A stretch of 64,000 nucleotides of DNA from an uncultured Clostridia bacterium (GTDB taxonomy: Bacteria > Bacillota > Clostridia > Christensenellales > Pumilibacteraceae): NCBI GenBank assembly GCA_947066105.1, contig CAMSYM010000008.1:26695-90694 (forward strand). The letters are read 5' to 3'. Below, piece by piece: positions 25,531 through 64,000 of this stretch; positions within the stretch are counted from its first letter, which is position 1; every line of letters starts with the position of its first letter. Position numbers and translations under genes: made by a program. The notes below the pieces were generated by a model that had not been told where the DNA came from, made no database searches, and was given only the letters and a program-made list of their open reading frames with translations.

Positions 25531-25571
25531 AATTAAGGATTCGTAATGATCGATCCCTACGGGTGATGGAG

Positions 25572-34515: not shown

Positions 34516-34540
34516 TATCGATCTATTGTAATACGAAGAT

Positions 34541-34620: not shown

Positions 34621-34659
34621 TACTTAACGGACCGAAAGCGTAACATAGGGAGCATATGT

Positions 34660-37600: not shown

Positions 37601-37722
37601 ACTTCACGCGCAAGCGCGAAAAGGAAATGCTCGGCGTCGGTCCGGCGGCGAGTGGGGCGGAGCTCGACCGTTCGACGGACGCGCCGTCGGGAGAACAGCC
37701 TGTCGACAGCGACGAAAAATAA
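34660..37722 (+). CDS. GH3 beta-glycosidase 2 (permuted), N- and C-terminal TM anchors
   Basis: EEGITLLKN, YEEGIYVGYRYYET, DSDGP, KHFAVNDQE, VITD. Confidence 0.9.
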   Translation: MDLKFIWKHKGTRAWLLTTCILLVLVLVISFVITQVPIINNSLGLVFGGERANIVEDRRDELYNREYDNKKDVLAAANEFVESVAEEGITLLKNQSNALPLGAGAKVSVFGKNSVDLVYGGSGSASGATGAARKTLYDSLKAAGIEYNPVLKSFYDDNSRSGSGRPDNPPMTSGQRLAGFAVGETPIASYEPLENSYDGYTDAAIVVFSRIGGEGFDLPRTMADDFGSDKPVSGAESADSHYLELDKNEKALLDHVKSKFGKVVVVLNTGTTMELGALDADPDIDAVLWMGLPGATGVMALGRILTGEVYPSGRTVDTWAADFTKDPTWYNSGVYGSKYGNRYLKPDGSTSDFAFVNYEEGIYVGYRYYETRSYEENKTAQTVDEWYDANVVYPFGYGLSYTDFDWEVSFDKPTGSAINADDVIKATVKVTNKTEVAGKDVVQLYYTAPYTAGGIEKSHVVLGAFAKTKLIAGGGTDTVELELKVSDMKSYDWSDANGNGFKGYELDAGKYTVTVGTDAHTAKASATYELKDGVTLREIADADGKAVAVQNRFDDVSAGIFGNDTAAAYVSRSDFDGTLPQAYLTDGERTLTQELLTKLENSIKRKYTESDDGKKWQVTGESPRTTPVDNGISFADMLYDDDGNFVGSADFDDPRWEKLLDEISLDEMKNLVGFGAFRTNAVSGVNGVVDKPLTNDSDGPSGFTSFISGATIYDTCSYQAECLLGATWNVELAYRMGEIVGEEGLVGNEKGDGMPYSGWYAPAVNIHRSPFAGRNWEYYSEDGLLSGKFAAEVIKGARTKGVYCYVKHFAVNDQETDREYNGILVWANEQAMREIYLEPFEIAVKQGKANAMMTSFNRLGMTWAGGSYELLTETLRDEWGFKGMVITDYSLNRYTYVDQMIRAGGDLFLTQDVKTFNMPDDATQVTLLRKATKNILYTVANSNIMSIKIDGYKLAVWQVVLIVIDVAVIVALAVWGVLIIYFTRKREKEMLGVGPAASGAELDRSTDAPSGEQPVDSDEK

Positions 37723-40613: not shown

Positions 40614-40735
40614 ACATGTTGCACCGTGACGGCGGCGGTTTTGCCTGCCCCCGGAAAGATCGGCTCGACGTTACGGAAGCGCGGCGGCGTGAAACGTTTG
40701 CGCTTGAAACAAAATTTTTTACGAGGTTGTTTTCG

Positions 40736-41224
40736 ATGAAAACATTAATGGCAAAAAAGATCGATTCGCGTTCCGCCGATTATAAGATCGGCGACAAGGA
40801 ATACAAGCGCAAGTGGTATGTGGTCGATGCGGCGGGCGTGCCGCTCGGCAGGCTCGCAAGTCAGGTAGCGACGGTACTCAAAGGCAAGAACAAGCCCGAG
40901 TATACGCCCAATGCCGATGCGGGCGATTTCGTTATAGTCGTCAATACCGATAAGGTCGTGCTTACGGGCGATAAGCTCAACAAAAAGTTGCGCACGTATC
41001 ATACCGGTTACATGGGCGGGCTGAAACAGCAAAAGTATTCGCATTTTCTGCAAGAGAATTCGGATAAAGCCGTCGTCAAGGCGGTAAAAGGCATGCTCCC
41101 CAAAAACACGCTCGGTCGTCAAATGATCAAAAAGCTCAAAGTGTTCAAAGGTCCCGAGCATAATCACGAGGCTCAACAGCCCACTCCGCTCGCCATAAAA
41201 TTCAACGGCGGCAAGGCAGATTAA
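40736..41224 (+). CDS. rplM: 50S ribosomal protein L13
   Basis: RKWYVVDA, LGRLAS, GKNKPEYTPNADAGDFVIVVN and KGMLPKN motifs. Confidence 0.97.
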   Translation: MKTLMAKKIDSRSADYKIGDKEYKRKWYVVDAAGVPLGRLASQVATVLKGKNKPEYTPNADAGDFVIVVNTDKVVLTGDKLNKKLRTYHTGYMGGLKQQKYSHFLQENSDKAVVKAVKGMLPKNTLGRQMIKKLKVFKGPEHNHEAQQPTPLAIKFNGGKAD

Positions 41225-41243
41225 GGAGAAGAGGTAATAAGCT

Positions 41244-41660
41244 ATGGCAGCTAAATCAACCGCAAAAAAGAAAGTTCAGTACTGGGGTACGGGCAGACGC
41301 AAAAAGGCTATCGCCCGCGTGCGCGTTCTTGCGGGCGGCACAGGCGCTATTACGGTCAATAAACGTTCGCTCGACGATTATTTCCCGCTCGATACGCTTA
41401 AACTCATCGTCAATCAGCCGTTCGCGGAAACCGATACGGCGGGCAAGTTCGACGTTATAGTCAACGTTCGCGGCGGCGGCTATACCGGACAGGCGGGCGC
41501 TATCCGTCACGGCATTTCGCGCGCGCTCTGCAACGTCGACGCGACTTACCGTCCCGCGCTCAAAAAAGCGGGCTTCCTTACTCGCGATCCGAGAATGAAA
41601 GAGCGTAAAAAATACGGTCTTAAAAAAGCGCGCAAAGCGCCGCAATTCTCCAAGCGTTGA
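41244..41660 (+). CDS. rpsI: 30S ribosomal protein S9
   Basis: [31 protein letters not shown] and [12 protein letters not shown] motifs. Confidence 0.98.
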
Positions 41661-49481: not shown

Positions 49482-52400
49482 ATGAATTTCAAGACGTTTT
49501 GGAAAAAAAGAAGCTTTAAGGCGTGGTTTTGCTCGTTCATACCCGTGCTTGCTTTGACGCTTGCCGTCGTGCTTGTGCTTACGTGCAATACCTTTTTGTA
49601 TCAAACGATAAACGCCGTGTTGGGCGGCGAGCGTCGCGTGTTAAAAAGCGGTGACCCGTCCAAGTATCAGTATTACACCACGGAGTACAAGGGCAAGGAC
49701 GACGTGCTTGCGGCGGCGAACGCGCTCAACGAGCGCATAGTAGAAGAAGGCGCGGTGCTTTTGAAAAACGAAAATAACGCATTGCCCGTCGCGGCGGGCG
49801 CAAAGGCTACCGTTTTCGGCAAGAATTCGGTCAACGCGGTTTACGGCGGTTCGGGTTCCAACGCGGGCGCGGGCGGCGACGACGGCAAATGCACTCTTTA
49901 CGATAGTTTGGAAAGCGCGGGAATCGAGTATAACGACGCGATGAAGGCGTTTTACGACAGCGACAAGCGATCGGGCGACGGTCGTCCCGCATCGCCCGAC
50001 ATGAATTCGACCATAACGGGTTTGACCGGCTTTGCCACGGGCGAAACGCCTGCCGACAGGTACGACGATACGGTACGCGCGTCGTGGAAGGATTACAACG
50101 ATCTGGCGATAGTGTTTATCTCGCGCATAGGCGGCGAGGGCTTCGATCTGCCGCGCTCCATGTTTTGGGACGGCAAGGGTTATCAAAACTGGAACGGCGA
50201 TTCGCTCATACCCGGCGCGCGTAACAAGGACGATCACTACTTACAGCTCGATAAAAACGAAACGGACATGATAAGCGTCGCCGCGCAAAACTTCGATAAG
50301 GTCGTTGTCGTGCTTAACTGCCCCACGAGCATGGAACTCGGATTTTTGGACGATCCCGATCATTACGCGTACAGCGACAAAATAAAAGCGTGCTTATGGA
50401 TAGGCACGCCCGGCAATTCTGGCATGGCGGCGCTCGGCAGGATACTGACGGGCAAAGTTAATCCGAGCGGGCGGACGGCGGATATTTACGCGCGCGACTT
50501 TAAAAAAGACCCGACCTGGAACAACTTCGGCAATAATCTCGAAGAGGGCGGCAATCAGTACGTCGACGAGAACGGCGAAAAGCGCAGTGCGTACTTCGTG
50601 CATTACAGCGAGGGCATTTACATAGGCTACCGCTATTATGAAACGCGTGCGCTTACGGAATCGAATAACGGCAACGGCGGGTGGTATAAGGACAACGTGG
50701 TGTTCCCGTTCGGTTACGGGCTGAGCTATACAGACTTTACGTGGAGCGTCGAGCGTACTTCGCATTCCGAAAGCTTCGACGGCGACGACACGATCACCGT
50801 CGACGTAAAGGTCGTCAACGTCGGCGACGTTGCGGGCAAGGACGTAGTACAGCTTTACTATTCCGCGCCGTACTATTCCGATAGCGGTATCGAAAAATCG
50901 CACGTCGTTTTGGGCGCGTTCGCAAAGACGAAGTTGTTGCAGCCCGGCGAGAGCGATACAGTTGCGCTCGAACTTTCCGCGCGCGATATGGCGAGCTACG
51001 ACTATGCGGACGGTAACGGCAACGGGTTTAAGGGCTACGAACTCGAACACGGCAACTATACGCTGTACGTTGCGCGCGATTCGCACGACCGTTCCGCGCC
51101 AGTCACGCTTTCGCTCGGCGCGGACGTCAAGTACGAAACGGACGGCAAAACGGAGACGCCCGTTAAAAATCTTTTCGACGACGTAAGCTCGCGCGTGACC
51201 GAGTACATGAGCCGCGACGACTTTGAAGGAACGTTTCCGCAAGAACCGTCGGCGGAGCTTCGCACGCTCAAAGCGAGCGATATACAAAAGCTGAATTACA
51301 CGTTAAAGGATAAGGCGAGCGATCCGTGGTACAGTACGGATATGCCCGATCAAAGCGCGTCGGAGCTTACGCGCGATCAAACAAAGATCAAGCTTTACGA
51401 CCTTATAGGCAAGGACTACGAACACGAGCTGTGGGACGAATTGCTCGATCAATTGACTGTTTCGCAAATGCGCTCGCTCATAGAGATAGGCAACTACCAT
51501 ACCGAAGCGATAGTCGGTATAGACAAACCCAAAACCACCGATCCCGACGGACCTATGGGCTACTCGCTGTTCATGGGCGACGACGCGGTGTATAAGACCT
51601 GCTACTATGCGGGCGAATCGCTCATGGGTAGCACGTTCAACGTCGAACTGGCGGAAGAGTTCGGCAAGATGATAGGCGACGAGTCGCTCATCGGCGATCG
51701 CAAGGGCGACAAGCGCACGTATTCGGGCTGGTACGCGCCCGCGTGCAATCTTCACCGCAGTCAGTTCGGCGGACGCAACTTCGAGTATTACAGCGAGGAC
51801 CCCGTGCTTTCGGCTAAAATGGCTGTGGGCGTTATCCAAGGCGCGATGAGCAAGGGCGTATATACTTATCTCAAACATTTTGTCATGAACGATCAGGAAA
51901 CCAACCGCGACACCAACGGTATAGCGGTGTGGGCTAACGAGCAGACCATGCGCGAGCTGTACTTTTTACCGTTTGAAAAGGCGGTCAAGGACGGCGGCAC
52001 TACCGCGATGATGAGTTCGTTCAACCGCATAGGCTTTACCTGGGCGGGCGGAAATCACACGCTGTTGACAAAGCTTCTGCGCGACGAGTGGGGCTTTAAG
52101 GGCATGGTGATAACCGATTACAACCTGCAACAGTACATGAACGTCGACCAAATGATCCGCGCGGGCGGCGACGTCAACCTGAGCCAAAGCAAATCGCTCA
52201 AAAATTACGATACCGCGACTTCGGTCACGGCTATACGCAAAGCTGCCAAGAACATTCTGTACACGGTAGCCAACAGCAACGCCATGAACGGCATGGGCGA
52301 AGGCAACGTTTGGGCGTACGCCGCGCCCGTATGGTTCATAGCTATGTGGGTCGTGTTTGCCGTGCTTGCGGCGGGATTTGTCGCATGGGGCGCGGCGGTG

Positions 52401-53768
52401 ATAGCGAAAATAGCCGTCGAGTACAATACGGGCGTAAAGAGCGGCGTTATAGTACCGCCCGCAAAAAAGCAACGCGTCAAAGATCCCGACTTTAAAATGA
52501 GCAAGCTCGCTAAGATATTCATAGCGGCGACGGGCGGCGCGGCGGTCGCGCTTGCGGTGACGGCGATAGCGCTTTTGGCTACGCCCGCCGAGCAAAGCGG
52601 CGTGCCGCAGGATTACAGACCATACGTCGGCGGGATCACTTTGACTTTCGACAACATGCCCGTTACGGGCGGAGTAGTCACCGTCGAGCGCGGCGGCGAC
52701 ACTCACCGCATAACGGCGCTCGTCGATACGTACGGCATGGAATCGGGCGGGGTCGTATACGAAAGCTCCGACGAGAATATAGCGGCGGTCGGAGCGGACG
52801 GCACGATCGACGCGAGAGCGGTCGGCGAATGTTCGGTCACCGTTACGGTAGTCAACGATAAGTCGGTGTACGGCGCTTTGCTTGTGCGCGTTACCGACGG
52901 CGAGCTTGACGGCACGGCGCACGTCGTGACGGTGGTGGGCGGAAGCGCGAATTTGGCGCAGGCGACTGCGGGAACGACGGTAATACTCACGCCCGAAACT
53001 CGTACGGGCATGCGCTTCGTCGGCTGGGAATTCGACTGTGAAGTCGAACAAAGCGGAAACCTGTTCCGCATGCCGTCCGCGCCCGTTACCGTAACGGCTA
53101 AGTACGAGAAGATAGGTTACAAACTGACGCTCGACGGCGCGACGTTCGCGGACGGCGAAAGCGAAAAAACTCTGTTGTACGAGGACGGTTTCCCGCAAGA
53201 CATGCGTTATACGCTCGACGACGGCGAGCTGTTTTTCGGCTGGCGCGACAAGGTGAACGGCAAACGCGTGACCGATCTTACCATGCCCGCGCGCGACATG
53301 ACGATACAGCCGATGATCCTTGCCAAGGGCGATGCGCTCGTCATGGCGGAAAACGGATTCGATTACGGTTCGGGTACGGGCGGCAATGCGACCGATACCG
53401 ATATCGACGGCGTAGCCGCAAAGCGCATAGAGATAGCGGCGGGGCAAAGCCTTGTGCGCATCAAAAACGGCGGAGTCACCGGCGGCGGCGATAACGACGT
53501 GTACGTCGGCATCACTCTGCGCAATCCCAACGAGTTCGATATAACTTTGGAATATCAGGTGGAGTATTACGGCGTAGTGTGGGGTACGGGCAAGGTGACA
53601 GTCAAGGCGGGCGAAACGGCAACATATGCCATAGTCGTAAACGGACTGGACGCAACGGCGACGCCTTATCACAGAATAGTTTTGGAAGCGGCGACGGAAC
53701 AAACGGCAATGCTCGATTTTTGCGGGTTTATTTACGAAACCGAAGGAGAGAACAATGAAAATGCGTAA
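49482..53768 (+). CDS. GH3 beta-glycosidase 3 (permuted) with TM hairpin, Big_2-like, InlB-B-repeat-like and beta-sandwich domains
   Basis: EEGAVLLKNE, YSEGIYIGYRYYET, TDPDGP, KHFVMNDQE, VITD. Two TMs after the catalytic core. Confidence 0.9.
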   Translation: MNFKTFWKKRSFKAWFCSFIPVLALTLAVVLVLTCNTFLYQTINAVLGGERRVLKSGDPSKYQYYTTEYKGKDDVLAAANALNERIVEEGAVLLKNENNALPVAAGAKATVFGKNSVNAVYGGSGSNAGAGGDDGKCTLYDSLESAGIEYNDAMKAFYDSDKRSGDGRPASPDMNSTITGLTGFATGETPADRYDDTVRASWKDYNDLAIVFISRIGGEGFDLPRSMFWDGKGYQNWNGDSLIPGARNKDDHYLQLDKNETDMISVAAQNFDKVVVVLNCPTSMELGFLDDPDHYAYSDKIKACLWIGTPGNSGMAALGRILTGKVNPSGRTADIYARDFKKDPTWNNFGNNLEEGGNQYVDENGEKRSAYFVHYSEGIYIGYRYYETRALTESNNGNGGWYKDNVVFPFGYGLSYTDFTWSVERTSHSESFDGDDTITVDVKVVNVGDVAGKDVVQLYYSAPYYSDSGIEKSHVVLGAFAKTKLLQPGESDTVALELSARDMASYDYADGNGNGFKGYELEHGNYTLYVARDSHDRSAPVTLSLGADVKYETDGKTETPVKNLFDDVSSRVTEYMSRDDFEGTFPQEPSAELRTLKASDIQKLNYTLKDKASDPWYSTDMPDQSASELTRDQTKIKLYDLIGKDYEHELWDELLDQLTVSQMRSLIEIGNYHTEAIVGIDKPKTTDPDGPMGYSLFMGDDAVYKTCYYAGESLMGSTFNVELAEEFGKMIGDESLIGDRKGDKRTYSGWYAPACNLHRSQFGGRNFEYYSEDPVLSAKMAVGVIQGAMSKGVYTYLKHFVMNDQETNRDTNGIAVWANEQTMRELYFLPFEKAVKDGGTTAMMSSFNRIGFTWAGGNHTLLTKLLRDEWGFKGMVITDYNLQQYMNVDQMIRAGGDVNLSQSKSLKNYDTATSVTAIRKAAKNILYTVANSNAMNGMGEGNVWAYAAPVWFIAMWVVFAVLAAGFVAWGAAVIAKIAVEYNTGVKSGVIVPPAKKQRVKDPDFKMSKLAKIFIAATGGAAVALAVTAIALLATPAEQSGVPQDYRPYVGGITLTFDNMPVTGGVVTVERGGDTHRITALVDTYGMESGGVVYESSDENIAAVGADGTIDARAVGECSVTVTVVNDKSVYGALLVRVTDGELDGTAHVVTVVGGSANLAQATAGTTVILTPETRTGMRFVGWEFDCEVEQSGNLFRMPSAPVTVTAKYEKIGYKLTLDGATFADGESEKTLLYEDGFPQDMRYTLDDGELFFGWRDKVNGKRVTDLTMPARDMTIQPMILAKGDALVMAENGFDYGSGTGGNATDTDIDGVAAKRIEIAAGQSLVRIKNGGVTGGGDNDVYVGITLRNPNEFDITLEYQVEYYGVVWGTGKVTVKAGETATYAIVVNGLDATATPYHRIVLEAATEQTAMLDFCGFIYETEGENNENA

Positions 53769-56700
53769 GAACAAAATGTACAAAGCGACCGCGTCGATTT
53801 TTGCGGCGGCGCTTATCGCGACAAGCGCGTTCGGAGTTGCTCCCGCAATACGCGTTGCGGCAAATAATGCGGGGGGGGGTATGCCTTCCGAAATTTCCGA
53901 AAGCTCCGCAAGCGCGAAAACGTTGAAAAAGAGTCCCGTCAACGGAAATTATTATTTCGCGGATTACGACAGCTCGCAGGAAGCGTTCGAAGCGGGCGAC
54001 AGGCTTAACAAGGATATAATATCCGAAGGCGCGACACTGCTCAAAAACGAAAACTCTCTGCCGCTCAAAGCGGGCGCAAAGGTAAGTATTTTCGGAAAAC
54101 GCTCGGCTAACAACCTGCGTTACGGCGGCGCGGGTTCGGGCGCGGGCAGCGGCGGCGCGAAGATAACTCTCGCGCAATCGTTGGAACGCGCGGGGCTTTC
54201 CGTAAACGCCGCATTGACGTCGTTTTACAATAACAATAACCAGTCGGGATCTGCGGGCGGCGATCTTAACAGTTACGGTGTTTATGCCGGACCCAAAAAC
54301 GGGTTCGAAACGCCGGTAGCCAAGCTCAAACAGTACGTAAACGAAAGCACGTATTCCGAGTACGGCGACGCGGCTATCATAGTGATCTCGCGCGCGGGAA
54401 GCGAAGCGGGCGACCTTACCAAGGGCATGGCGACGGGATACGGCGGCGACGGCAGGCTAAACGGCACTCCCGTTTCGGGCGCGCGCAATGCCGACGATCA
54501 TTACTTACAGCTCGATCAAAACGAGACCGATCTCATCAAGTACGTGGGCGATCGTTTCGACAACGTTATAGTGTTGTTTAACACAGGCTCGCAAATGGAA
54601 GTTGGATTTTTGGACGACGAAAATCACTATGCGTATCACAAAAATATCAAGGGCGCGATGTGGATAGGATTCCCCGGCAACGGCAACGGCTTGGAAGCCG
54701 TGGGCGAGATATTGGCGGGCAAGATAAGTCCGAGCGGACACACCGTAGATACTTACGCGCGCGACTTCAAGCTCGACCCTACGTGGTCGAACATGCCGAC
54801 GTATACAAATAATTTGTTCGTATACTCCAACTATTCGAGCAAGTCGTTCGTCAACTACAAGGAAGGCATTTATTCGGGCTACCGTTATTACGAGACGCGC
54901 GGGTTCACCGAAGGCGACGACGCGTATGTCAGCGGCGGCGAAAATACCGACGTTATCCACGGCACGAACACTACCGAGTGGGATGATTGGTACGACGCGC
55001 ACGTAGTGTATCCGTTCGGCTACGGCTTGTCGTACACTTCGTTCGACTGGGAGTTCGTAAGCTCCACATTGCCCGACGACGGCGTTATAGACCGCGACGA
55101 CGAAATATCCGTTTCGGTCAAGGTGACCAACACGGGCGAATACGCGGGCAAGGACGTAGTTCAGCTTTATTATACCGCGCCGTATACTGCGGGCGGGATA
55201 GAAAAGTCGTACGTCGCGCTTTGCGGGTATGCAAAGACGGGCGTGCTGGCGCCAGACGAAAGTCAGGTCGTCACGATGTCGGTCAAGGCGCGCGACATGG
55301 CGAGCTACGATCATAACGACGCCAATAAAAACGGATTTAAGGGTTATGAGCTGGAAGCGGGCGATTACGTTTTGAACGTAAGTCGCAACGCGCACGACGC
55401 GGTCATAAAAAAGGCGTTCAAGGTGGCGGGAGACGGCTTTAAGTACGCAGAGAACGAGATCGGCGTAATAGTCGAAAACCGCTTCGCCGATGCGGAAGCG
55501 GAAAACACAGTATATCTGAGCCGCAAGGATTTTGCGGGGACGTTCCCCAAAGAGCCGACGGCGGAAGAGCGTATCGCGGCGCAGACGGTGACGGACAAAG
55601 TCGCCGAAACGTCGGACAGCAACAAGATAGTTGCGGGCGACGATCCGTCCGATCCGTACTATGCGAGCGAGATGCCCGTAACGGGCGCGGACAACGGCGT
55701 AAAACTTGTCGATCTTTACGGACTCGATTACGAGAGCGCGGACTGGGAATTATTTCTCGATCAGCTTTCCGTCGGCGACAAGACGACGCGCGGCACTATG
55801 ACCAACGCCGTTTGGGAAAGCGGCTGGACGAGCTTCGGTAACTCGGCGCTCGGCATACCCGATTTTCACCATGAGGACGGTCCGAGCGGTATCGCGGGGC
55901 GGTACGTCAGCGGCGGTAACTATACCAACTTCGCAAGCGAAACGGTCACCGCATCCACTTGGAATAAAGAGCTTGCCGAACGCAAGGGGAATATCATAGG
56001 CAATCAGGGCTTGTTCGGCAACGGCTCGTCGCACGTGGAAGCGCTGTACGCGCCCGCTTGCAATATCCACCGCAGTCCGTTCGGCGGGCGTAACTTCGAG
56101 TATTTTTCGGAGGACGCGTATTTATCGGGCGAGATGGCGGGCAACATCGTCGCGGGCTGTAACGAAAAGGGCATGATAACCTTTGTTAAGCATTTTGCGG
56201 TCAACGATCAGGAATCCAAGCGCGACACGCTGTTGACCTGGGCGAACGAGCAGACTATACGCGAAGTGTATTTGCGTCCGTTCCAGATCTGCGTGGAAAA
56301 ATACGAGTCGCACGGCATGATGTCTGCGCTCAATAATCTCGGCGCGGTATGGACGGGCGGACATTACGAACTTTTAACCGACGTACTGCGCGGCGAGTGG
56401 GGCTTCGACGGCGTGGTCATCACCGATTACGTGCAAGGTCGCGGACAGCTTAACGGCAATATGGCGTTGCGGGCGGGCGGGGATATTTTGCTCGCGACGA
56501 GCGGCTCGGTGCAAAACCCCGCGGGACTCGATAAGCCCACGACCGTCGCTAATCTGCGCCGTGCGACGCATAATCTGTATTACAATATAGTCAACTATAC
56601 CGCGGCTTTCAATAAGAGCGTGATAAACGCGATGGGCGCGTACGACGGCGGCACGCTCGCGCCTGCCATCGATTCGATGGATTACGAGCAGTCGGTAGCC

Positions 56701-58482
56701 GGCGTATCGCTAAACGACGGCGGCTCGCCGAGCGACGTGACGTACGCTTTAAAGGACGGAAGCGAACTTCCCGACGGACTGACTTTGCGCGCGGACGGAG
56801 TGATATCGGGTTCGGCGGCAATGCAGTCGGAGGCGGCGGAATTTACGGTAGTCGCCAAGTACGGGTTTGCCGAGCGCGAAGCGACGTTCACTTTGCCCGT
56901 AGTCGACAAAGATCTTTCGGTCATTTACATCAAACAGCAAAATACAGTCGACGGGTTTGTCGGCGCGGAGCTTAACGAGCGCGTCGACTGGGCATACACG
57001 CTCGACGGCAAAAAACACGATATAAAGTACGGTCTGGCGGACGGGTGCCAAATGCCGTCGGGCTTGACGCTCGGTACGGACGGCGTTATATCGGGCAAAT
57101 CCGAATTGCCGTTCACCGATTACGAAGTGACGGTGCGCGCCGAGAGCGACGGGTTGTTGCCCATGTCCGTCAAGCTCGTTTTGAATATGTACAACGAGCA
57201 ACGCTTCAAGCCGAGCGCGCTCAAAAACGCCAAGCTCGGCACGCCGTATGCGGAAAGCGTTGTCGTCGGCGCGGACGGAACGGCAAAGTACGCATTGCGC
57301 ACGGGCGACAGTCTGCCGCAGGGCTTGACGCTTACCGAGCGCGGCTATATAACGGGAACGCCGACGGAAGCGGGGCTTAAAACGTTTACGGTCATTGCGT
57401 CGGGCGCATACGTCAAAACGCAGGAGCAAACGTTCTCGCTTGACGTAGGCATTCGTTACGATAATTTCACGCCCGCCGACGGTACGGTCGGAGCGAAATA
57501 CGAAACGTATATCAATTTCGCTCAGGGCGCGACCGACGTCAAATACAGTCTTACGGACGGCGCGTTGCCGCGCGGTATCACTCTCACGCGCGACGGGCTT
57601 TTAACGGGAACGCCGACGGAAAGCGGAAACTTCGCGTTTACCGTGACCGCTCGGTCGGGCGCTCTTTCGGACAGCGTTACCGCCAATCTGCATATCGCCG
57701 CCGCGGCGTCGCATACGGCGTATTATGCGGGATTGGGCATAGGCATAGCCGCGATCGTCATAGCGACGGCGGGTTGCGTCGTGTATTTGCTCGTTATAGA
57801 CAAGCGCAATTACGCGGACGGCAGCAAAGCCAAGCTCAACAAGACGTTTATCAAGATAGCGTCGCCGATAGTGGGCGTGATGCTCGTTTGCGTCATAACG
57901 CTTGGCGCGGTCCTTGCGCCGACGGCGGCTGCGGGCAAGCTCGAAACATATACGTTCGAAGCGGAATATGTGTATCTCGACGAATTCATGGGCGCGGGTA
58001 TAAGCAATTCAGGCGAAGGCGTTAACAACATTTACGGCGACGGCGGCGAAAACGACATAAACAAGGGTTGGAGCAACGGTTATTTCTTGGGAAATACGTA
58101 CGCCAAAAATTCGATAACGTTCGAGATAACGTCGGATAAAGCGGCGGACGGCAAGCTTGTTTTACGGCTTGCGTCCGAGCTGGGCAATCTCGCGCTCGAT
58201 AACAGCGTGTTCGGACTGGAAGTCAACGGAAAGGAAGTGGAATACAGCTTGACCGTTGCCAATTCGGCGGCAGGCTCGTACGACTTTGCCGATTATCCGA
58301 TCTCGGCTGTCGTAAAGCTGGGCGAAGGCGTAAACACCGTCACGCTCACGATAAAAGACAACACGTTAAAGGACGGCAACAGCATAGGCGCGCCGCTCAT
58401 CGACTGCATACGCATAACGACGGACGCTACGCTCACTTGGTCGCCGCTGACCGATAATCCCGACAACCGCGGCAAGATATAA
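53755..58482 (+). CDS. GH3 beta-glycosidase 4 (permuted) with four Ig-like (He_PIG-type) repeats, TM hairpin and C-terminal CBM-like domain
   Basis: SEGATLLKNE, YKEGIYSGYRYYET, HEDGP, KHFAVNDQE, VITD. Repeats LPxGLTLxxDGxISGTP. Confidence 0.9.
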   Translation: MKMRKNKMYKATASIFAAALIATSAFGVAPAIRVAANNAGGGMPSEISESSASAKTLKKSPVNGNYYFADYDSSQEAFEAGDRLNKDIISEGATLLKNENSLPLKAGAKVSIFGKRSANNLRYGGAGSGAGSGGAKITLAQSLERAGLSVNAALTSFYNNNNQSGSAGGDLNSYGVYAGPKNGFETPVAKLKQYVNESTYSEYGDAAIIVISRAGSEAGDLTKGMATGYGGDGRLNGTPVSGARNADDHYLQLDQNETDLIKYVGDRFDNVIVLFNTGSQMEVGFLDDENHYAYHKNIKGAMWIGFPGNGNGLEAVGEILAGKISPSGHTVDTYARDFKLDPTWSNMPTYTNNLFVYSNYSSKSFVNYKEGIYSGYRYYETRGFTEGDDAYVSGGENTDVIHGTNTTEWDDWYDAHVVYPFGYGLSYTSFDWEFVSSTLPDDGVIDRDDEISVSVKVTNTGEYAGKDVVQLYYTAPYTAGGIEKSYVALCGYAKTGVLAPDESQVVTMSVKARDMASYDHNDANKNGFKGYELEAGDYVLNVSRNAHDAVIKKAFKVAGDGFKYAENEIGVIVENRFADAEAENTVYLSRKDFAGTFPKEPTAEERIAAQTVTDKVAETSDSNKIVAGDDPSDPYYASEMPVTGADNGVKLVDLYGLDYESADWELFLDQLSVGDKTTRGTMTNAVWESGWTSFGNSALGIPDFHHEDGPSGIAGRYVSGGNYTNFASETVTASTWNKELAERKGNIIGNQGLFGNGSSHVEALYAPACNIHRSPFGGRNFEYFSEDAYLSGEMAGNIVAGCNEKGMITFVKHFAVNDQESKRDTLLTWANEQTIREVYLRPFQICVEKYESHGMMSALNNLGAVWTGGHYELLTDVLRGEWGFDGVVITDYVQGRGQLNGNMALRAGGDILLATSGSVQNPAGLDKPTTVANLRRATHNLYYNIVNYTAAFNKSVINAMGAYDGGTLAPAIDSMDYEQSVAGVSLNDGGSPSDVTYALKDGSELPDGLTLRADGVISGSAAMQSEAAEFTVVAKYGFAEREATFTLPVVDKDLSVIYIKQQNTVDGFVGAELNERVDWAYTLDGKKHDIKYGLADGCQMPSGLTLGTDGVISGKSELPFTDYEVTVRAESDGLLPMSVKLVLNMYNEQRFKPSALKNAKLGTPYAESVVVGADGTAKYALRTGDSLPQGLTLTERGYITGTPTEAGLKTFTVIASGAYVKTQEQTFSLDVGIRYDNFTPADGTVGAKYETYINFAQGATDVKYSLTDGALPRGITLTRDGLLTGTPTESGNFAFTVTARSGALSDSVTANLHIAAAASHTAYYAGLGIGIAAIVIATAGCVVYLLVIDKRNYADGSKAKLNKTFIKIASPIVGVMLVCVITLGAVLAPTAAAGKLETYTFEAEYVYLDEFMGAGISNSGEGVNNIYGDGGENDINKGWSNGYFLGNTYAKNSITFEITSDKAADGKLVLRLASELGNLALDNSVFGLEVNGKEVEYSLTVANSAAGSYDFADYPISAVVKLGEGVNTVTLTIKDNTLKDGNSIGAPLIDCIRITTDATLTWSPLTDNPDNRGKI

Positions 58483-58511: not shown

Positions 58512-60038
58512 ATGAAAAACAGGTTCAAAAAGCTTATGCTCGCAATATTCGCTATGACGGCGGTCGCAATGTGCGTGTTGGCGCTGGCGGCGTGCAGCGG
58601 TGGATATGTGGAAAAGCTGTCCGTAAAGGGCAAGATGTACTACATGGTCGGCGACGAGTTTGCCGGTGCGACGCTGACTGTCACGTATTCGGACGGCAGG
58701 CGCGAGCAGGTGGACGTCACTGCCGATATGGCGAACGGGTTCGATACGACGGTCGCAGGCAACAAAACGATAGCGGTCGTTTACGGCGGCAAGACGGTCG
58801 CCTTTGATATAACCGTGTCGGAGCTGTACGCGTCGGGCATATCCGTCGCCGACGGCGGCAAGACCGAATATCTTATCGGAACGCAATATGCGGACGGCGA
58901 CGCGAGTATAAACGTTTCGTATACCGACGGCACGGTGCAGACCGTTCCGATAACGGGCGGAATGATCTCCGGGCTGGACACGACTGTCGAAGGAGAAAAA
59001 ACGGTCAGCGTCAAGTATGGAATGCTGGACACGGCGTATACCGTGACGGTGCGCTATCCGTACGTCGTTTCGGCTACCGTCGCAAGCTCGACCAAAAGCG
59101 TGTACCGCGTGGGCGACGAGTTCGGCGGCGTGACGCTGGACGTGGTTTACGAGGACGATACGAGCGGCTCGGTGACCTTGACCGATATCGAGAGAGTAAA
59201 GGGCTTCGATACTACGGGCATAGGTCCGCGCACCGTGCGCGTCACGTACCGCAACCGTACGGTAAGTTACGACATACAAGTGCTTAAAGCGATAGCGGGC
59301 GTTACCGTAAAGAGCAGCGTCGGCATGTACGCAAAGGGCGACGCGTTCAAGGGCGCGGAGCTTGCGGTGGAATATGCCGACGGCACGAGCGAAACCGTTG
59401 CGGTCACGCCCGAAATGCTGACGGAGTTCGATACTATGCAAGTGGGCGATCGGACCGTCAAGCTGATGTTTGAAAACAGGGAGCTTACGTTCGGCATAAC
59501 CGTTTACGGCAAGTTCGCGGACGACGGCGGCGACAACAAGATACAGGTCGAAGACGGCGATCTCGTCGATATGAGCGGCGCGCAATTGCAAAGCGGCGCG
59601 GCAAGCAAGTTTGAAAGCACGACAAAAAATGCGCAAAACGAAGAATATTCAAACGGCGCGGAAGGATCGAGTACGGCGAATATTTCCGTTCAAGGCAATA
59701 AGATAGTTATCCGCTTTATCGCCGAGCGCGCCGGCAAGTATAAGCTGGGCATGCGCGCGCAGTCGGGCAGCGACGCCGGCAAAAGCGACGTCAAAGTCGC
59801 CGACGCATTCGATATATATGTCAACGGCGACATAAAGACGGCGAGCGGCGTCATACAAAAGGGGAGCGCCACGGGCGTCAACTGGAAGGATATGACTAAC
59901 TGGACGTTGCTCGACGATCTCGTCGGCGAGATCGATATCGTCGCGGGACTTAACGAGATAGAGCTCGCGTTCAAGGGCGGCACGGCGCAGACCATGCGGT
60001 TCCCCAATATCGACTATTTCGTCCTTACCGCGGTGTGA
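58512..60038 (+). CDS. Lipoprotein with four Big_3-type repeats and C-terminal CBM-like domain
   Basis: Lipobox LAAC. Repeats YxVGDEFxGATLTVTYSDG..GFDT. C-terminus ends RFPNIDYF. Confidence 0.75.
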   Translation: MKNRFKKLMLAIFAMTAVAMCVLALAACSGGYVEKLSVKGKMYYMVGDEFAGATLTVTYSDGRREQVDVTADMANGFDTTVAGNKTIAVVYGGKTVAFDITVSELYASGISVADGGKTEYLIGTQYADGDASINVSYTDGTVQTVPITGGMISGLDTTVEGEKTVSVKYGMLDTAYTVTVRYPYVVSATVASSTKSVYRVGDEFGGVTLDVVYEDDTSGSVTLTDIERVKGFDTTGIGPRTVRVTYRNRTVSYDIQVLKAIAGVTVKSSVGMYAKGDAFKGAELAVEYADGTSETVAVTPEMLTEFDTMQVGDRTVKLMFENRELTFGITVYGKFADDGGDNKIQVEDGDLVDMSGAQLQSGAASKFESTTKNAQNEEYSNGAEGSSTANISVQGNKIVIRFIAERAGKYKLGMRAQSGSDAGKSDVKVADAFDIYVNGDIKTASGVIQKGSATGVNWKDMTNWTLLDDLVGEIDIVAGLNEIELAFKGGTAQTMRFPNIDYFVLTAV

Positions 60039-60049
60039 CGGTAAAAAGT

Positions 60050-60083
60050 TCGGCGGTCTTGCGTAACGGCAAGACCGCTTTTC
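60050..60083 (+). terminator. Terminator ending GH3 cluster 2
   Basis: GCGGTCTTGC / GCAAGACCGC stem followed by TTTT. Confidence 0.7.
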
Positions 60084-60179
60084 CGTTTGTCGAAACCAAA
60101 GCGGAGCGAGCGAAACCGTGTACGTTCGCGGGCGCGGGGTCTTGCGAGTTTTTGCGTGCGGCGAATGGCGTTAAAATGC

Positions 60180-60209
60180 TTGACAAGGCGCGCGTTATTC
60201 GGTTATAAT
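60180..60209 (+). promoter_or_regulatory. sigmaA promoter of the str operon
   Basis: TTGACA, 18 bp spacer, TATAAT. Confidence 0.7.
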
Positions 60210-60303
60210 AAAGAGTACGCGCGGAAAAGCGCGTATAGCTCTTATTCGGATCACGGTTCGGAGTGGGGCGGCAATACTACTATTAAAAGGAGGTAGAGTA
60301 ACG

Positions 60304-60675
60304 ATGCCTACGATCAATCAGCTTGTTAGGAAGGGTCGGCAAAAGGTCGAGTATAAGTCCATGAGTCCTATTCTCGACAACAATCCGCAAAAGCGCGGCG
60401 TGTGCCTTTCGGTCACGACCACTACGCCTAAAAAGCCGAATTCCGCTTTGCGCAAGATCGCGCGTGTGCGCCTTGTCAACAAGATGGAAGGTACGGTTTA
60501 TATCCCGGGAATCGGTCACAACTTGCAGGAACACTCGGTTGTGCTCGTCCGTGGCGGCAGAGTGAAGGATTTGCCCGGTGTGCGGTATCACATCATACGC
60601 GGTGCGTTAGACACTGCGGGTGTAGCCAAACGCAAGCAAGCCCGCTCAAAGTACGGCGCAAAACGCGCGAAATAA
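60304..60675 (+). CDS. rpsL: 30S ribosomal protein S12
   Basis: [19 protein letters not shown] and [13 protein letters not shown] motifs. Confidence 0.98.
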
Positions 60676-60687
60676 TAGGCTCTGTCT

Positions 60688-60841
60688 CTCAACGCTCGCA
60701 CCGCGTCTTGCTGTGATTTTCGGCGCTTGCTTTGTTGCGGCTTCTCGACGTAGCGCTGCTACGACTTCGTCGCCGCGCCGCGTAATCGCTCGAAAATCCC
60801 GACGCAATACGTTGATGCTCGCGTTGTTCGACATTCGCAAT
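60688..60841. repeat. Palindromic REP/MITE-like element, copy 1
   Basis: Core TCTTGCTGT...TCGACGT...TACGACTTC...CCGACGCAA is shared with 61560-61663 and 63900-64000. Confidence 0.8.
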
Positions 60842-61060
60842 GCTCTGTCTGTATGTAAAATGCAGATAAGAATATTGCTCATAGACCTAAAAGCTTTGTC
60901 TCGTAATGTTCGCCGTATACGCTTTGTATGTCAAAGTGTAAGCGGGATATTGCGCGCACGGGTTTTATTTCGCAAATTTTGTTCCGCAACGCTTTTCTTT
61001 ATTATATATAGGGAAAGCACAACGGGCGTACGCCCGAAAAATTCGAATAAGGAGATAATC

Positions 61061-61531
61061 ATGCCGAGAAGAAGCGGGGTCCCCAAACGGGACGTATTAC
61101 CCGATCCTATTTATAACAGCAAGGTCGTTACCAAGCTCGTCAATCAGATCATGCTCGACGGCAAAAAAGGTACGGCTCAGGCTATCGTGTACGACGCGTT
61201 TTCCATTATGAAGGAAAAAACGTCGCTCGAACCGGTGGACGTTTTCAATCAAGCTATGGCAAACGTCAAACCGCAATTGGAAGTCAAGGCGCGCAGAGTG
61301 GGCGGCTCTACTTATCAAGTGCCGCTCGAAATTCGTGCCGACCGTCAGCAAACGCTCGCTATCCGTTGGATAGTCATGTTCGCACGCAAGCGCGGCGAAA
61401 AGACGATGGACGAGCGGCTTGCGGGCGAGCTTATCGACGCGTACAACAATACGGGCGCGGCGGTCAAGCGCAAAGAGGAAATGCACAGAGTTGCGGAAGC
61501 CAACAAGGCGTTCGCGCATTTCCGTTGGTAA
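61061..61531 (+). CDS. rpsG: 30S ribosomal protein S7
   Basis: MPRR...[26 protein letters not shown] and [12 protein letters not shown] motifs. Confidence 0.98.
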
Positions 61532-61534
61532 TCG

Positions 61535-61690
61535 CTTGCTCAAAGCGACTTGCGCGACATCTTGCTGTCGATTTTGCCGCTAAGTGCGTTAACGCCTTTT
61601 CGACGTGGCGCTGCTACGACTTCAAAGGCGTTGCCTTCTTACCGACAAAATCGCCGACGCAATCTCGTCACGTCGTCGCTATCGCAAGCT
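61535..61690. repeat. Palindromic REP/MITE-like element, copy 2
   Basis: Same core as copy 1 with different but complementary stem arms. Confidence 0.8.
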
Positions 61691-61770
61691 ATCACATCTT
61701 TAATTAATAAATATAGACCATAATTCCGAATTCCGAATTTCGAATTCCGAATTGATTAAGAGGAATAATC

Positions 61771-63870
61771 ATGGCAAGACAATTCAAACTTGAAAACACG
61801 CGCAATATCGGTATCATGGCGCATATCGACGCGGGTAAAACAACAACGTCCGAGCGTATTTTGTTCTACACCGGCAAGGTGCACAAGATAGGCGAGGTCC
61901 ACGACGGCGGCGCGACAATGGACTGGATGGTCCAAGAACAGGAGCGCGGCATAACCATTACGTCGGCGGCGACCACCACGCAGTGGCAGACTGCGCCCGA
62001 TCAGCCGTTGGTGCGTATCAACCTTATAGATACCCCGGGACACGTCGACTTTACGGTCGAGGTCGAGCGTTCGCTCAAAGTTTTGGACGGCGCGGTCGCG
62101 GTGTTCTGCGCAAAGGGCGGCGTCGAGCCGCAGTCCGAGACCGTTTGGCGTCAGGCGGACAAGTACGGCGTGCCGCGTATAGCGTACGTCAACAAGATGG
62201 ATATCAACGGCGCAAACTTCTTCAACGTGCTAAACATGATGAAGACGCGTTTGGGCGCACATCCCGTCGCTTTGCAGATCCCTATCGGTAAGGAAGACAC
62301 GTTTAAGGGCATGGTCGACCTTATCACCATGAAAGCGGAGATTTACGAAGACGATCTGGGCAAGACCATCAACGAGACCGATATCCCCGAAGAGTACAAG
62401 GCGCAAGCGGAAGAATACCGCGGCATACTTTTGGAAGCCGTTGCGGAAACCGACGACGCGCTCATGGAAAAATACTTCGCCGGCGAAGAGCTGTCCGTGG
62501 AAGAGATCCGCACTGCTGTGCGCAAGGCTACGCTCGATATGACGATGAACCCCGTATTCTGCGGCTCGTCGTACAAGAACAAGGGCGTGCAAAAGCTTCT
62601 CGACGCCGTCGTTTACTACTTGCCGAGCCCCGTCGATATCGCGCATATCAAGGGCACCGACCCGAAAGGCGAGGAAGCCGAGCGCAAGACGGACGACAAC
62701 GAGCCGTTCTCCGGCTTGGCGTTCAAGATCGCCGCGGACCCGTTTGTCGGTAAGCTCGCGTTTTTCCGTTGTTACAGCGGCGTATGTCCTGCGGGATCGT
62801 ACGTACTCAATTCGACCAAAGGCAAAAAGGAACGCATAGGGCGCTTGCTGTTGATGCACGCCAATTCGCGTACCGATATCGAAGAAGTCCGCGCGGGCGA
62901 TATTTGCGCGATAGTCGGACTCAAAGATACGACGACGGGCGACACGCTTTGCGACGCTTCGCACCCGATCGTGCTCGAAAGCATGGAATTCCCCGAGCCG
63001 GTCATTCGCGTAGCTATCGAACCCAAGACCAAAGCCGGTCAGGAAAAAATGACCATGGCGCTCATCAAACTCGCGGAAGAAGACCCCACGTTCAAGACCT
63101 ATACCGATCAGGAAACGGGTCAAACGATAATCGCGGGCATGGGCGAGCTGCATCTCGACATCATCGTCGATCGCTTGCTCCGCGAATTCAAGGTGGAAGC
63201 CAACGTCGGTAAGCCGCAGGTCGCGTACCGCGAAACTATCCGCAAAAAGGTGGAAGCCGAAGGTAAGTATATCCGTCAGTCGGGCGGTAAAGGTCAGTAC
63301 GGTCACTGTAAGGTCATTATGGAGCCGCTCGAACAGGGCAGCGGCTACGTATTCGAGGACAAGACCGTCGGCGGTTCCGTTCCGAAGGAATATATCCCCG
63401 CAGTCGACAACGGTATACAGGAAGCGCGCATGAGCGGTATACTCGCCGGTTACGAGTGCGTGGACTTTAAGGTAACGTTGTACGACGGAAGCTATCACGA
63501 AGTCGACTCGTCCGAAATGGCGTTTAAGATCGCGGGCTCGATGGCGTTTAAGGACGGCATGAAAAAGGGCGACGCGTTCTTGCTCGAACCTATCATGAAG
63601 GTCGACGTAACGCTCCCCGACGAGTATCTCGGCGACGTTATGGGCAACGTGTCCGCGCGTCGCGGCACGATATTCGGCACCGACCTTGTCAACGGCAGCC
63701 AGATAATCCATGCGGAGATCCCGCTGTCCGAAATGTTCGGCTACGCGACCGATCTTCGTTCGCGTACGCAGGGTCGCGGCAACTACACCATGCAGTTCGA
63801 TCACTATGCCGAAGTTCCGCGCAATATAGCGGAGAAGGTAATAGGCGAGCGTAGCAAAGCCCAAGCTTGA
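61771..63870 (+). CDS. fusA: Elongation factor G
   Basis: [31 protein letters not shown] and [12 protein letters not shown] motifs. Confidence 0.99.
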
Positions 63871-63889
63871 TAAGCCTATTTTCAAGCAT

Positions 63890-64000
63890 TCGTGCGACAT
63901 CTTGCTGTCGTTTTCGGCGATGACCGCGTTGCAGCCGCTCGACGTATAGTGAACATACGACTTCGCGGCTGCGCCTTGTTCTCGCTCGAAAACGCCGACG
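63890..64000. repeat. Palindromic REP/MITE-like element, copy 3 (truncated by the window end)
   Basis: GCGACATCTTGCTGTCG...TCGACGTA...TACGACTTC...CCGACG. Confidence 0.75.

What the first reader, a model, noticed from the sequence alone, without database searches (positions are those of the whole stretch)
60679..64000. A covarying hairpin element occupies each spacer of the str operon
Seen: three copies (cores 60706-60808, 61560-61663, 63900-64000) keep fixed motifs TCTTGCTGT, TCGACGT, TACGACTTC and CCGACGCAA, while paired arms change together. Outer arms: GATTTTCG/CGAAAATC, GATTTTG/CAAAATC, CGTTTTCG/CGAAAACG. Inner arms: GCGGC/GCCGC, CGCCTTT/AAAGGCG, GCAGCCGC/GCGGCTGC. Copy 1 is flanked by a 9-bp direct repeat GCTCTGTCT (60679, 60842), a possible target duplication. 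All three copies have the same orientation. Inference: a structured RNA or ssDNA element under selection for its fold. It could be a REP/MITE recognised by a HUH transposase, or a processing/regulatory module of the rpsL-rpsG-fusA transcript, where S7 autoregulation acts in E. coli.
Basis: partly seen in the sequence, partly recalled or inferred. Interest (0 to 1): 0.7.

Follow-up and report, generated by a model that had tools for sequence, protein, structure and literature searches.

The report
Mobile hairpin repeats after stop codons
The three look-alike hairpins between rpsL, rpsG, fusA and tuf are real copies of a small, lineage-specific family of 130-190-base palindromic repeats that sit right after stop codons in a few operons of mouse-gut Anaerocaecibacter-like bacteria; they are swapped or missing between close relatives, so they are not a dedicated S7 control site.

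Summary
Three same-strand copies share the stated motifs, and their stems covary. Each hairpin is longer than reported and runs back to within 0-3 nt of the stop codon.

With 16 distinct copies from relatives, 23 of 35 base pairs show compensatory changes and 90.7% of cells are paired, against 28-44% in slid controls.

The element is not specific to the str operon. The same genome has a fourth copy between clpP and clpX. Related MAGs carry copies at metG|leuS, at ftsK|rimO-like and in a 5' leader.

Occupancy of orthologous spacers varies between close species. The rpsG|fusA spacer is 2-57 nt without the element and 239-267 nt with it. Sequence subtypes cut across sites. Two A. muris strains differ at 77 positions inside the cassette and at 3 positions in 1.9 kb of flanks. 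Unrelated long hairpins (F2, F3) fill the same positions in other relatives.

No Rfam family matches. Only 1 of 14 copies has a flanking direct repeat. No Y1 transposase lies nearby. No further copy was found in about 450 kb of other clade DNA. Metatranscriptome contigs run through copies 1 and 2.

Best reading: a low-copy, exchangeable ERIC/REP-like intercistronic hairpin that is co-transcribed and probably acts as a 3' stabiliser or processing site. Whether the fold is selected in RNA or in DNA is undecided (G-U 34 cells, A-C 25).

The parts
60180..60209 (+). Operon promoter, TTGACA-18-TATAAT (context)
   Evidence: 12 of 12 consensus match at L001:8410-8439, which is window 60180-60209. Metatranscriptome contigs begin at about 60278, and there is no coverage at 60000-60267 in four runs.
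60304..60675 (+). rpsL (ribosomal protein S12)
   Evidence: Pfam PF00164, E 7.8e-36.
60690..60827 (+). F1 copy 1 (subtype A). Conserved core 60706-60808; outer stem CAACGC..GCGTTG at 60690-60826.
   Evidence: CM R1 119 bits and R2 124 bits at 60694-60827. Fold -57.1 kcal/mol, z -3.2.
60679..60687 (+). Left copy of the 9-bp direct repeat GCTCTGTCT
   Evidence: It is the only F1 copy with a flanking repeat above chance.
60842..60850 (+). Right copy of the 9-bp direct repeat GCTCTGTCT
61019..61060 (+). Small covarying hairpin, A-run, AATTCGAATAAGGAG and the rpsG ribosome-binding site (context, not part of F1). Present in relatives with and without F1.
   Evidence: Spacer sequences. The stem changes from CGGGCG/CGCCCG to GGGGC/GCCCC, GCGC/GCGC and GAGGC/GCCTC. 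Weak RAGATH-25 hit only (E 1.4).
61061..61531 (+). rpsG (ribosomal protein S7)
   Evidence: Pfam PF00177, E 1.1e-66.
61532..61691 (+). F1 copy 2 (subtype C). Core 61560-61663. The hairpin begins at the first base after the TAA stop.
   Evidence: CM R1 134 bits at 61548-61682. Fold -52.3 kcal/mol, z -3.5. Outer stem TCGCTTGC/GCAAGCTA read.
61700..61770 (+). AT-rich -10-like module, four TCCGAAT-type heptads (61722-61753) and the fusA ribosome-binding site. This is a separate repeated module, not F1.
   Evidence: The same module precedes other genes (window 8300-8330, and 1655-1700 and 25570-25610 on the - strand) and clpX in L110.
61771..63870 (+). fusA (EF-G)
   Evidence: Pfam domains. 94% identical to Anaerocaecibacter muris EF-G.
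63873..64000 (+). F1 copy 3 (subtype B), cut by the window end. The complete hairpin is L001:12103-12264, which is window-equivalent 63873-64034.
   Evidence: CM R1 112 bits (truncated) at 63888-64000 and 142 bits at L001:12118-12253. Sequence.

Best explanation
F1 is a low-copy, lineage-specific family of imperfect palindromic elements: a core of about 135 nt inside a 155-190-nt hairpin. It occurs in Anaerocaecibacter-like Clostridia (Pumilibacteraceae, mouse gut). Copies lie on the sense strand between co-directional genes, and the base of the hairpin almost touches the upstream stop codon.

The element is, or recently was, exchangeable DNA. It is present or absent at orthologous spacers, subtypes move between sites, and whole cassettes are swapped between strains.

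Inferred mode of action: it is transcribed with its operon, and the stable hairpin, which has no U-tail, acts on the mRNA as ERIC, REP and Correia elements or phage T7 RNase III sites do. That is, it serves as a 3' barrier or processing point that sets the stability of the upstream cistron independently of the downstream one.

Shown: the family, its structure, its covariation, its dispersal and polymorphism, and its transcription. Inferred: the RNA-level role and the way it spreads.
For: - Structure: with 16 distinct copies, 90.7% of cells are paired against 28-44% in slid controls, 23 of 35 pairs carry compensatory changes, and 0 of 500 shuffles reach this.
- Two strains of the window's species differ at 4 positions in copy 3, and these make 2 compensatory pairs.
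- Dispersal: a fourth copy lies in the same MAG between clpP and clpX (L110:10624-10759, 135 bits). Other copies follow metG (before leuS), follow ftsK (before a rimO/miaB-like gene), and sit in a promoter-proximal leader.
- Polymorphism: the rpsG|fusA spacer is 2-57 nt in L105, L107, L108 and L109, 239-267 nt with F1, and 406 nt with the unrelated F2 hairpin. The clpP|clpX spacer is 60-106 nt without F1 and 411 nt with it.
- Subtypes cut across sites. Type B occupies fusA and clpP here, rpsG in A. muris and rpsL in L105.
- A. muris strains differ at 77 positions within L098:8948-9138 and at 3 positions in 1.9 kb of flanks.
- Position: model position 1 lies 8-21 nt after a stop codon in 13 of 14 copies, and all copies are on the sense strand.
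- Transcription: RNA-run contigs span 60278-62070 and 61493-62171 at depths like those of the genes. Nothing lies upstream of 60268 in four runs.
- The hairpin is not followed by a T-run.
- Precedent: bacterial MITE-type repeats at gene 3' ends are co-transcribed, and some control mRNA stability (PMC3184786). REPs lie mostly downstream of ORFs and are plausibly RNA elements (PMC3733652).
Against: - There is no strand signal in the mismatches: G-U 34 cells against A-C 25. Selection could therefore act on DNA hairpins.
- Only assembled contigs were available, not reads, so no RNA ends or cleavage sites could be mapped.
- Copy number is far below that of REP, ERIC or Correia elements. No extra copy was found in about 450 kb of clade DNA, and no near-identical copy in a 2.3-Gb metagenome.
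- Another r-protein operon in the window (rplM-rpsI, 40616-41660) has none. A general role in highly expressed operons is therefore not shown.
- The mechanism of spread is unknown: there are no target-site duplications and no transposase nearby.
- Close relatives do without the element, so it is dispensable.
Confidence: 0.55

Rival explanations
1. F1 is a purely selfish DNA element. It would be a non-autonomous hairpin transposon moved as single-stranded DNA by a HUH/Y1 enzyme (RAYT or IS200/IS605 type) encoded elsewhere. Its fold and its conserved bulges would be the transposase's recognition structure. Its fixed orientation would reflect the replication strand. Its place next to stop codons would be where insertions are tolerated. 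Any RNA effect would be incidental.
For: - There are no target-site duplications in 13 of 14 copies, as expected for HUH transposition.
- A-C mismatches are about as common as G-U.
- Asymmetric internal loops are conserved while the stems vary.
- Subtypes hop between sites, and cassettes are replaced with a sharp edge at the stop codon.
- Most genes in the window lie on the + strand. Orientation relative to transcription therefore cannot be separated from orientation relative to replication.
Against: - No Y1_Tnp gene appears among the called genes within 10 kb of any copy in about 20 loci.
- Copy number is very low and copies are 44-89% alike, with no recent burst.
- The element is far longer than the 20-40-bp REP units and has no unpaired GTAG or CGTC tag at its end (definition in PMC3733652; sequences).
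- Unrelated hairpins F2 and F3 sit at the same positions. This points to a property of the site, not of one transposase.
Confidence: 0.25
2. F1, like F2 and F3, is an unconventional transcription terminator or insulator without a U-tract. It would split the ancestral str operon into separately promoted units.
For: - tuf has its own conserved promoter, TTGAGA-17-TATAAT, in all species.
- An AT-rich -10-like module precedes fusA and clpX.
- No canonical terminator lies between fusA and the tuf promoter.
- Every long hairpin starts right after a stop codon.
Against: - RNA contigs run through copies 1 and 2 at a depth similar to that of the flanking genes.
- No T-run follows the stems.
- tuf itself uses an ordinary hairpin plus T-run terminator, so this organism has canonical terminators.
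- One copy (L022) sits in a 5' leader, after a promoter.
Confidence: 0.1
3. F1 is a cis-regulatory RNA of translation genes, for instance an operator bound by ribosomal protein S7 or another translation factor. On this reading the str operon copies are the functional ones.
For: - Twelve site occupancies fall in the str cluster of 9 genomes.
- The rpsL|rpsG copy is the most widespread and is still recognisable at 81% EF-G identity (L109; 40 bits with R1, 79 bits with R2).
- Loop nucleotides are conserved.
Against: - The element also follows clpP and ftsK.
- It is absent from rpsL|rpsG in L103, L107 and L108.
- The 'conserved' internal loop closes into a plain helix in the A. muris rpsG copy.
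- Alleles at one site differ by 40% within a species.
- The distance to the downstream start codon varies from 48 to about 315 nt, whereas the distance to the upstream stop is fixed.
- A different small hairpin next to the rpsG ribosome-binding site is the conserved feature.
Confidence: 0.04
4. F1 is an attC-like recombination site, which would make this a cluster of attC sites lacking an integrase.
For: - Each gene is followed, in one orientation, by an imperfect palindrome that starts at its stop codon.
- The structure is kept while the sequence varies.
- Whole cassettes are replaced.
Against: - The RYYYAAC / GTTRRRY boxes are not present at the ends in most copies (checked by eye; only L101_rpsL has GCCTAAC, without a partner).
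- No integrase gene lies within 10 kb.
- The flanking genes are essential core genes in conserved order, not cassettes.
Confidence: 0.02

Closest known systems
ERIC / IRU elements of Enterobacteriaceae (about 127-bp imperfect palindromes)
   Same: Similar size. Each is one long imperfect hairpin. Both lie in transcribed intergenic DNA, including intercistronic spacers. Presence differs between related genomes. ERIC elements downstream of a gene alter mRNA fate (PMC3184786).
   Different: ERIC elements have TIRs, a TA flank or duplication, and tens to hundreds of copies in either orientation. F1 has no consistent duplication and very few copies. All F1 copies are on the sense strand, and the hairpin base abuts the stop codon.
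REP / BIME / REPIN elements and their RAYT transposases
   Same: Extragenic palindromes found mostly downstream of ORFs between co-directional genes. Probably transcribed. Compensatory evolution of stems. No target duplication (PMC3733652).
   Different: REP units are 20-40 bp, carry an unpaired GTAG or CGTC tag, and occur in high copy number with a RAYT gene. F1 is 130-190 nt, has no terminal tag, is low-copy, and no RAYT was seen.
Correia (NEMIS) elements of Neisseria
   Same: Palindromic repeats of 100-160 bp that are co-transcribed with neighbouring genes, with hairpins that act at the RNA level (PMC3184786, PMC2229807).
   Different: Correia elements duplicate TA, carry promoters and an IHF site, and number in the hundreds. 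None of this was found for F1.
RNase III processing hairpins between the early genes of phage T7 (from my own knowledge, not tested here)
   Same: A family of related hairpins with internal loops, one in each intercistronic spacer of a polycistronic transcript. After cleavage they leave a protective 3' stem on the upstream message.
   Different: The T7 sites are about 60 nt and their function is proven. Cleavage of F1 is only a hypothesis.
S7 translational operator in the E. coli rpsL-rpsG spacer (from my own knowledge)
   Same: A structured RNA in the same spacer of the same operon.
   Different: F1 is not confined to that spacer and is not conserved there.

Membership tests
Rfam families (any described structured RNA) | A match to a curated covariance model | tested here: not met
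   The only hit above gathering score in the window is a tRNA. In 60000-64000 at E up to 10 there are only three chance-level hits, none on the cores.
MITE (ERIC, Correia, RUP type) | Small, non-coding, and folds into a long stem-loop with terminal inverted repeats | tested here: met
   Hairpins of 155-190 nt whose arms pair out to the ends. No conserved ORF is possible because the stems covary.
MITE (ERIC, Correia, RUP type) | Flanking target-site duplication | tested here: not met
   Only copy 1 has a flanking direct repeat (9 bp; 0 of 300 shuffles). The other 13 copies are at shuffle level.
MITE (ERIC, Correia, RUP type) | Multiple dispersed copies and evidence of mobility | tested here: met
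   At least 7 distinct site types, with presence or absence at orthologous sites and subtypes that cut across sites. Copy number is low: 4 known copies in the source MAG.
MITE (ERIC, Correia, RUP type) | A parent IS with the same ends, or a transposase acting in trans | not testable with these tools
   No whole genome of the clade could be scanned. No such gene appears in the loci held (Pfam columns).
REP / REPIN | Palindromic unit of 20-40 bp with an unpaired GTAG or CGTC tag at one end | tested here: not met
   The unit is 130-190 nt and its ends carry no such tag. GTAG occurs only inside the apical stem of subtypes A and C. Definition from PMC3733652.
REP / REPIN | High copy number | tested here: inconclusive
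   No extra copy in 499 kb searched. One exact-pattern locus per species genome in GTDB. No other near-identical copy in metagenome contigs. No complete genome was scanned with the model.
REP / REPIN | An associated RAYT (Y1 transposase) gene | not tested
   None within 10 kb of any copy, but the genome-wide gene content was not available.
Intrinsic terminator | A GC-rich stem followed by a U-tract | tested here: not met
   The terminator scan flags no F1 hairpin as a terminator. The only scan hit inside an element is a 5-bp chance match within copy 1 (L001:8939-8955). No T-run follows the outer stems. RNA contigs read through.
S7 (rpsG) autoregulatory leader | Conserved in, and specific to, the rpsL-rpsG spacer | tested here: not met
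   Absent in L103, L107 and L108. Present after rpsG, fusA, clpP, metG and ftsK.
Integron attC site | R''/R' boxes (RYYYAAC / GTTRRRY) at the ends, plus an integron integrase | tested here: not met
   The boxes are not found at the ends of the copies (sequences, inspected by eye). No integrase among neighbouring genes. No attC model was available.
RNase III processing site | Cleavage within the double-stranded stem in vivo or in vitro | not testable with these tools
   All RNA runs are held as assembled contigs without direction or read ends.

The most novel reading that the evidence does not exclude
Long hairpins without U-tails may form a class of exchangeable '3' cassettes' anchored to stop codons. 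On this reading F1 subtypes A, B and C and the unrelated F2 and F3 would be delivered or replaced by a site-selective mechanism that recognises the end of a translated gene. Alternatively, they would be selected because a hairpin abutting the terminating ribosome tunes termination, recycling or mRNA fate in highly expressed genes. That would be a new targeting rule for a bacterial mobile element, or a new type of 3'-UTR module.
Probability: 0.15. Interest if true: 0.7.

Novelty: new variant of a known kind. Interest (0 to 1): 0.4.

Why it matters
The finding adds an undescribed palindromic repeat family from a barely studied gut clade that has a cultured member, A. muris. That member can be used for experiments.

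The family's unusual habits set it apart from REP, ERIC and Correia elements:
- very few copies;
- strict sense orientation;
- a hairpin base that abuts the stop codon;
- concentration in an essential operon that repeats normally avoid;
- cassette-like replacement between strains.

It is a clean natural system for asking whether such hairpins are kept for the mRNA or for their own spread. It is also a warning that covariation among paralogous repeats does not by itself indicate a dedicated regulatory RNA.

Tried and rejected
- Rfam at gathering and E-value thresholds gave nothing.
- The JGI metagenome pattern scan gave 28 hits, none real by the covariance model. Fifty-eight of the 66 genome-collection hits were chance matches in GC-rich genomes.
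- K-turn reading of the UCGA/ACUUC loop: the two strands do not give tandem G-A pairs, and the loop closes to a helix in the A. muris rpsG copy. Rejected.
- Target-site duplication: only copy 1. TA flanks are not consistent (by eye).
- attC boxes were not found.
- S7 operator: rejected on distribution.
- Copy-number estimate by laying metagenome contigs on copy 2: only near-identical DNA is laid, so this shows only the absence of recent duplicates.
- RNA end mapping was impossible because all RNA runs are stored as contigs.
- The G-U versus A-C strand test gave no decision.
- Empty-site comparison to find exact insertion borders between species failed because the spacers are too diverged. The within-species A. 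muris comparison did give borders.
Full report
**What is in the window.** The last 3.8 kb holds a perfect sigma-70-type promoter (60180-60209). It is followed by rpsL (60304-60675), rpsG (61061-61531) and fusA (61771-63870). The window belongs to contig CATNAW010000005.1 of MAG GCA_950096665.1. Locus L001 from that contig adds 10 kb downstream, with tuf at L001:12580-13782. EF-G is 94% identical to that of Anaerocaecibacter muris (Pumilibacteraceae, Clostridia). The DNA is found in mouse-gut metagenomes and metatranscriptomes.

A composite of three of the four reported motifs hits three times in 64 kb, all on the + strand, with none expected by chance. The quoted arms are read as stated. Copy 3 is cut by the window end, and its missing part, including CCGACGCAA, is in L001. 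Each copy folds into one long hairpin of -43 to -57 kcal/mol. The hairpins are longer than reported: less conserved outer stems carry them back to the stop codon (60690-60826; 61532-61691; 63873 to window-equivalent 64034). There is no copy after tuf, which has an ordinary terminator. Rfam has nothing like the element.

**The fold is maintained.** A covariance model built from 8 copies (R1) and a second from 18 (R2) retrieved 16 distinct copies. On their alignment:
- 90.7% of cells form standard pairs, against 28-44% when partners are slid by 1-3 columns.
- 23 of 35 pairs show changes on both sides.
- No shuffle out of 500 reaches the observed values.

Two samples of the window's own species differ at four positions in copy 3, and these four make two compensatory pairs (GCAGCCGC/GCGGCTGC against GCGGTCGC/GCGACCGC). 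A single conversion tract from another copy could produce the same pattern.

**The mismatches carry no strand signal.** G-U fills 34 cells and A-C 25. Selection on the sense RNA is therefore not demonstrated, and a DNA hairpin is not excluded.

**The element is not specific to the str operon.** An exact-pattern scan of one genome per species found true relatives only in five uncultured Clostridia MAG loci. None of these loci contains rpsL, fusA or tuf. The contexts are:
- metG followed by leuS (L019, L061);
- ftsK followed by a rimO/miaB-like gene (L021);
- clpP followed by clpX (L024);
- a leader behind a TTGACA-17-TATACT promoter (L022).

A ClpP look-up then showed that the window's own MAG carries the clpP|clpX copy on another contig (L110:10624-10759, 135 bits). 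An RNA-run contig had already joined that flank to the shared core. The source genome therefore has at least four copies. All copies lie on the sense strand. In 13 of 14, the model's first position is 8-21 nt after a stop codon, and the outer stem fills most of that gap.

**Occupancy changes between close relatives (spacer table).**
- Window species: F1 in all three spacers.
- A. muris: after rpsL and rpsG, none after fusA (150-nt spacer).
- L101: after rpsL and rpsG, with an unrelated hairpin (F2) after fusA.
- L105 (EF-G 95%): after rpsL only, with a 2-nt rpsG|fusA spacer.
- L103 (92%): no F1, with F2 after rpsG.
- L107 and L108: none.
- L109 (81%): a decayed copy after rpsL.

The clpP|clpX spacer is 411 nt with F1 and 60-106 nt in two related species that lack it.

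**Subtypes cut across sites.** Pairwise identity groups the copies by subtype, not by site:
- Type B sits at fusA and clpP here, at rpsG in A. muris and at rpsL in L105.
- Type A sits at rpsL here and at rpsG in L101.
- Type C sits at rpsG here and at metG and ftsK elsewhere.

The three neighbours in the window are only 63-73% alike and are not local duplicates.

**Whole cassettes are swapped within a species.** Two A. muris strains with identical EF-G differ at 77 positions inside L098:8948-9138 and at 3 positions in the surrounding 1.9 kb. The left edge falls at the first bases after the rpsL stop codon.

**Other hairpins use the same positions.** Unrelated long hairpins F2 (L103:9595-9725; L101:12104-12245) and F3 (L108:12098-12232) also start at the stop codon.

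**It does not fit the classical repeat families.**
- Only copy 1 has a flanking direct repeat.
- The unit is several times longer than a REP and lacks the GTAG or CGTC end tag (PMC3733652).
- No Y1 transposase gene lies within 10 kb of any copy (Pfam columns).
- R2 finds no further copy in 499 kb of clade DNA.
- A 2.3-Gb mouse metagenome holds no other near-identical copy of copy 2.
- A second r-protein operon in the window, rplM-rpsI at 40616-41660, has none.

The family is therefore low-copy and strongly concentrated in a few intercistronic sites, above all the str cluster.

**Transcription.** In four metatranscriptomes nothing covers 60000-60267. Contigs run from 60278 through copies 1 and 2 into fusA (60278-62070; 61493-62171) at depths like those of the coding regions. 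The elements are thus part of the mRNA and are not efficient terminators. No T-run follows them. tuf has its own conserved promoter in every species. fusA and clpX are preceded by an AT-rich -10-like module with TCCGAAT heptads. Only contigs were available, so RNA ends could not be mapped.

**Interpretation.**
- Best-supported reading: an exchangeable ERIC/REP-like intercistronic palindrome that is co-transcribed. It most likely acts as a 3' hairpin, either a decay barrier or a processing site, for the upstream cistron. This matches what is described for MITE-type repeats at gene 3' ends (PMC3184786, PMC2229807). The dispersal and polymorphism are shown. The RNA role is inferred.
- Main rival: a selfish ssDNA hairpin transposon whose fold serves a transposase. 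The absence of duplications and the A-C/G-U balance fit it. The low copy number, the missing transposase and the presence of unrelated hairpins at the same sites argue against it.
- The S7-operator idea fails on distribution. A small covarying hairpin next to the rpsG ribosome-binding site, present in all relatives, is a better candidate for that role.

**Verdict.** I rate it a new variant of a known kind (bacterial interspersed palindromic repeats). The unusual part is the stop-codon anchoring and the cassette exchange. Interest is moderate.

Noticed in passing
L103:9595-9725; L101:12104-12245; L108:12098-12232: Two further families of 130-140-nt hairpins (F2 shared by L103 and L101, F3 in L108). 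They are unrelated in sequence to F1 and also begin at the stop codon of rpsG or fusA in related species.
   Followed up: partly
window 61700-61760; 8300-8330; 1655-1700 (-); 25570-25610 (-); L110:10950-11000: A repeated module just upstream of ribosome-binding sites. It consists of an AT-rich stretch ending in a -10-like CATAAT/TATAAT, followed by 3-5 heptads of the type TCCGAAT/TCCGCAT. The pattern AATTCCGAAT with up to 1 mismatch hits 22 times against 8 expected.
   Followed up: partly
window 1729-1751, 25716-25738, 26174; L001:12360-12382; L110:1248-1270 and 10874-10905: A short palindromic repeat, GTCATCCTGAGC..GAAGGATC. At window 1701-1830 and 25691-25820 it forms the left arm of a hairpin of about 110 nt (z about -4 and -3.2). 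The two regions are part of a larger duplicated stretch (1886-2026 against 25896-26036, 89% identical).
   Followed up: no
window 61019-61060 and the same place in L098, L101, L103, L105, L107: A small hairpin whose stem covaries between species, followed by an A-run and AATCGAATAAGGAG, lies directly before the rpsG start codon. It is present whether or not F1 is in the spacer, and is a possible S7 operator or 5' stabiliser.
   Followed up: no
L098:2923-5010; L101:414-8343; L105:1-2558; L108:1-8462: The region just upstream of the rpsL promoter differs in every relative and holds defence or mobile genes: SIR2/TIR, type I restriction-modification with Fic, and AbiH with a serine recombinase. 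In the window it holds glycoside hydrolase family 3 genes instead.
   Followed up: no
window 30457-33768, 34564-37722, 49482-53768, 53755-58482: Four large paralogous glycoside hydrolase family 3 genes, two of them in tandem, account for most long direct repeats in the window (families D4-D20).
   Followed up: no
window 2683-7176: A 1497-aa ORF built of 69-nt (23-aa) periodic repeats, giving 15 or more in-register copies in the repeat search.
   Followed up: no
window 34501-34630: A nearly perfect long hairpin (-53 kcal/mol at 45% GC, z -4.4) followed by a T-run, between two genes. It is probably a strong bidirectional terminator.
   Followed up: no
window 40616-41660: The rplM-rpsI (L13-S9) operon has a 19-nt spacer and no F1 copy. 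It served as a negative control.
   Followed up: yes
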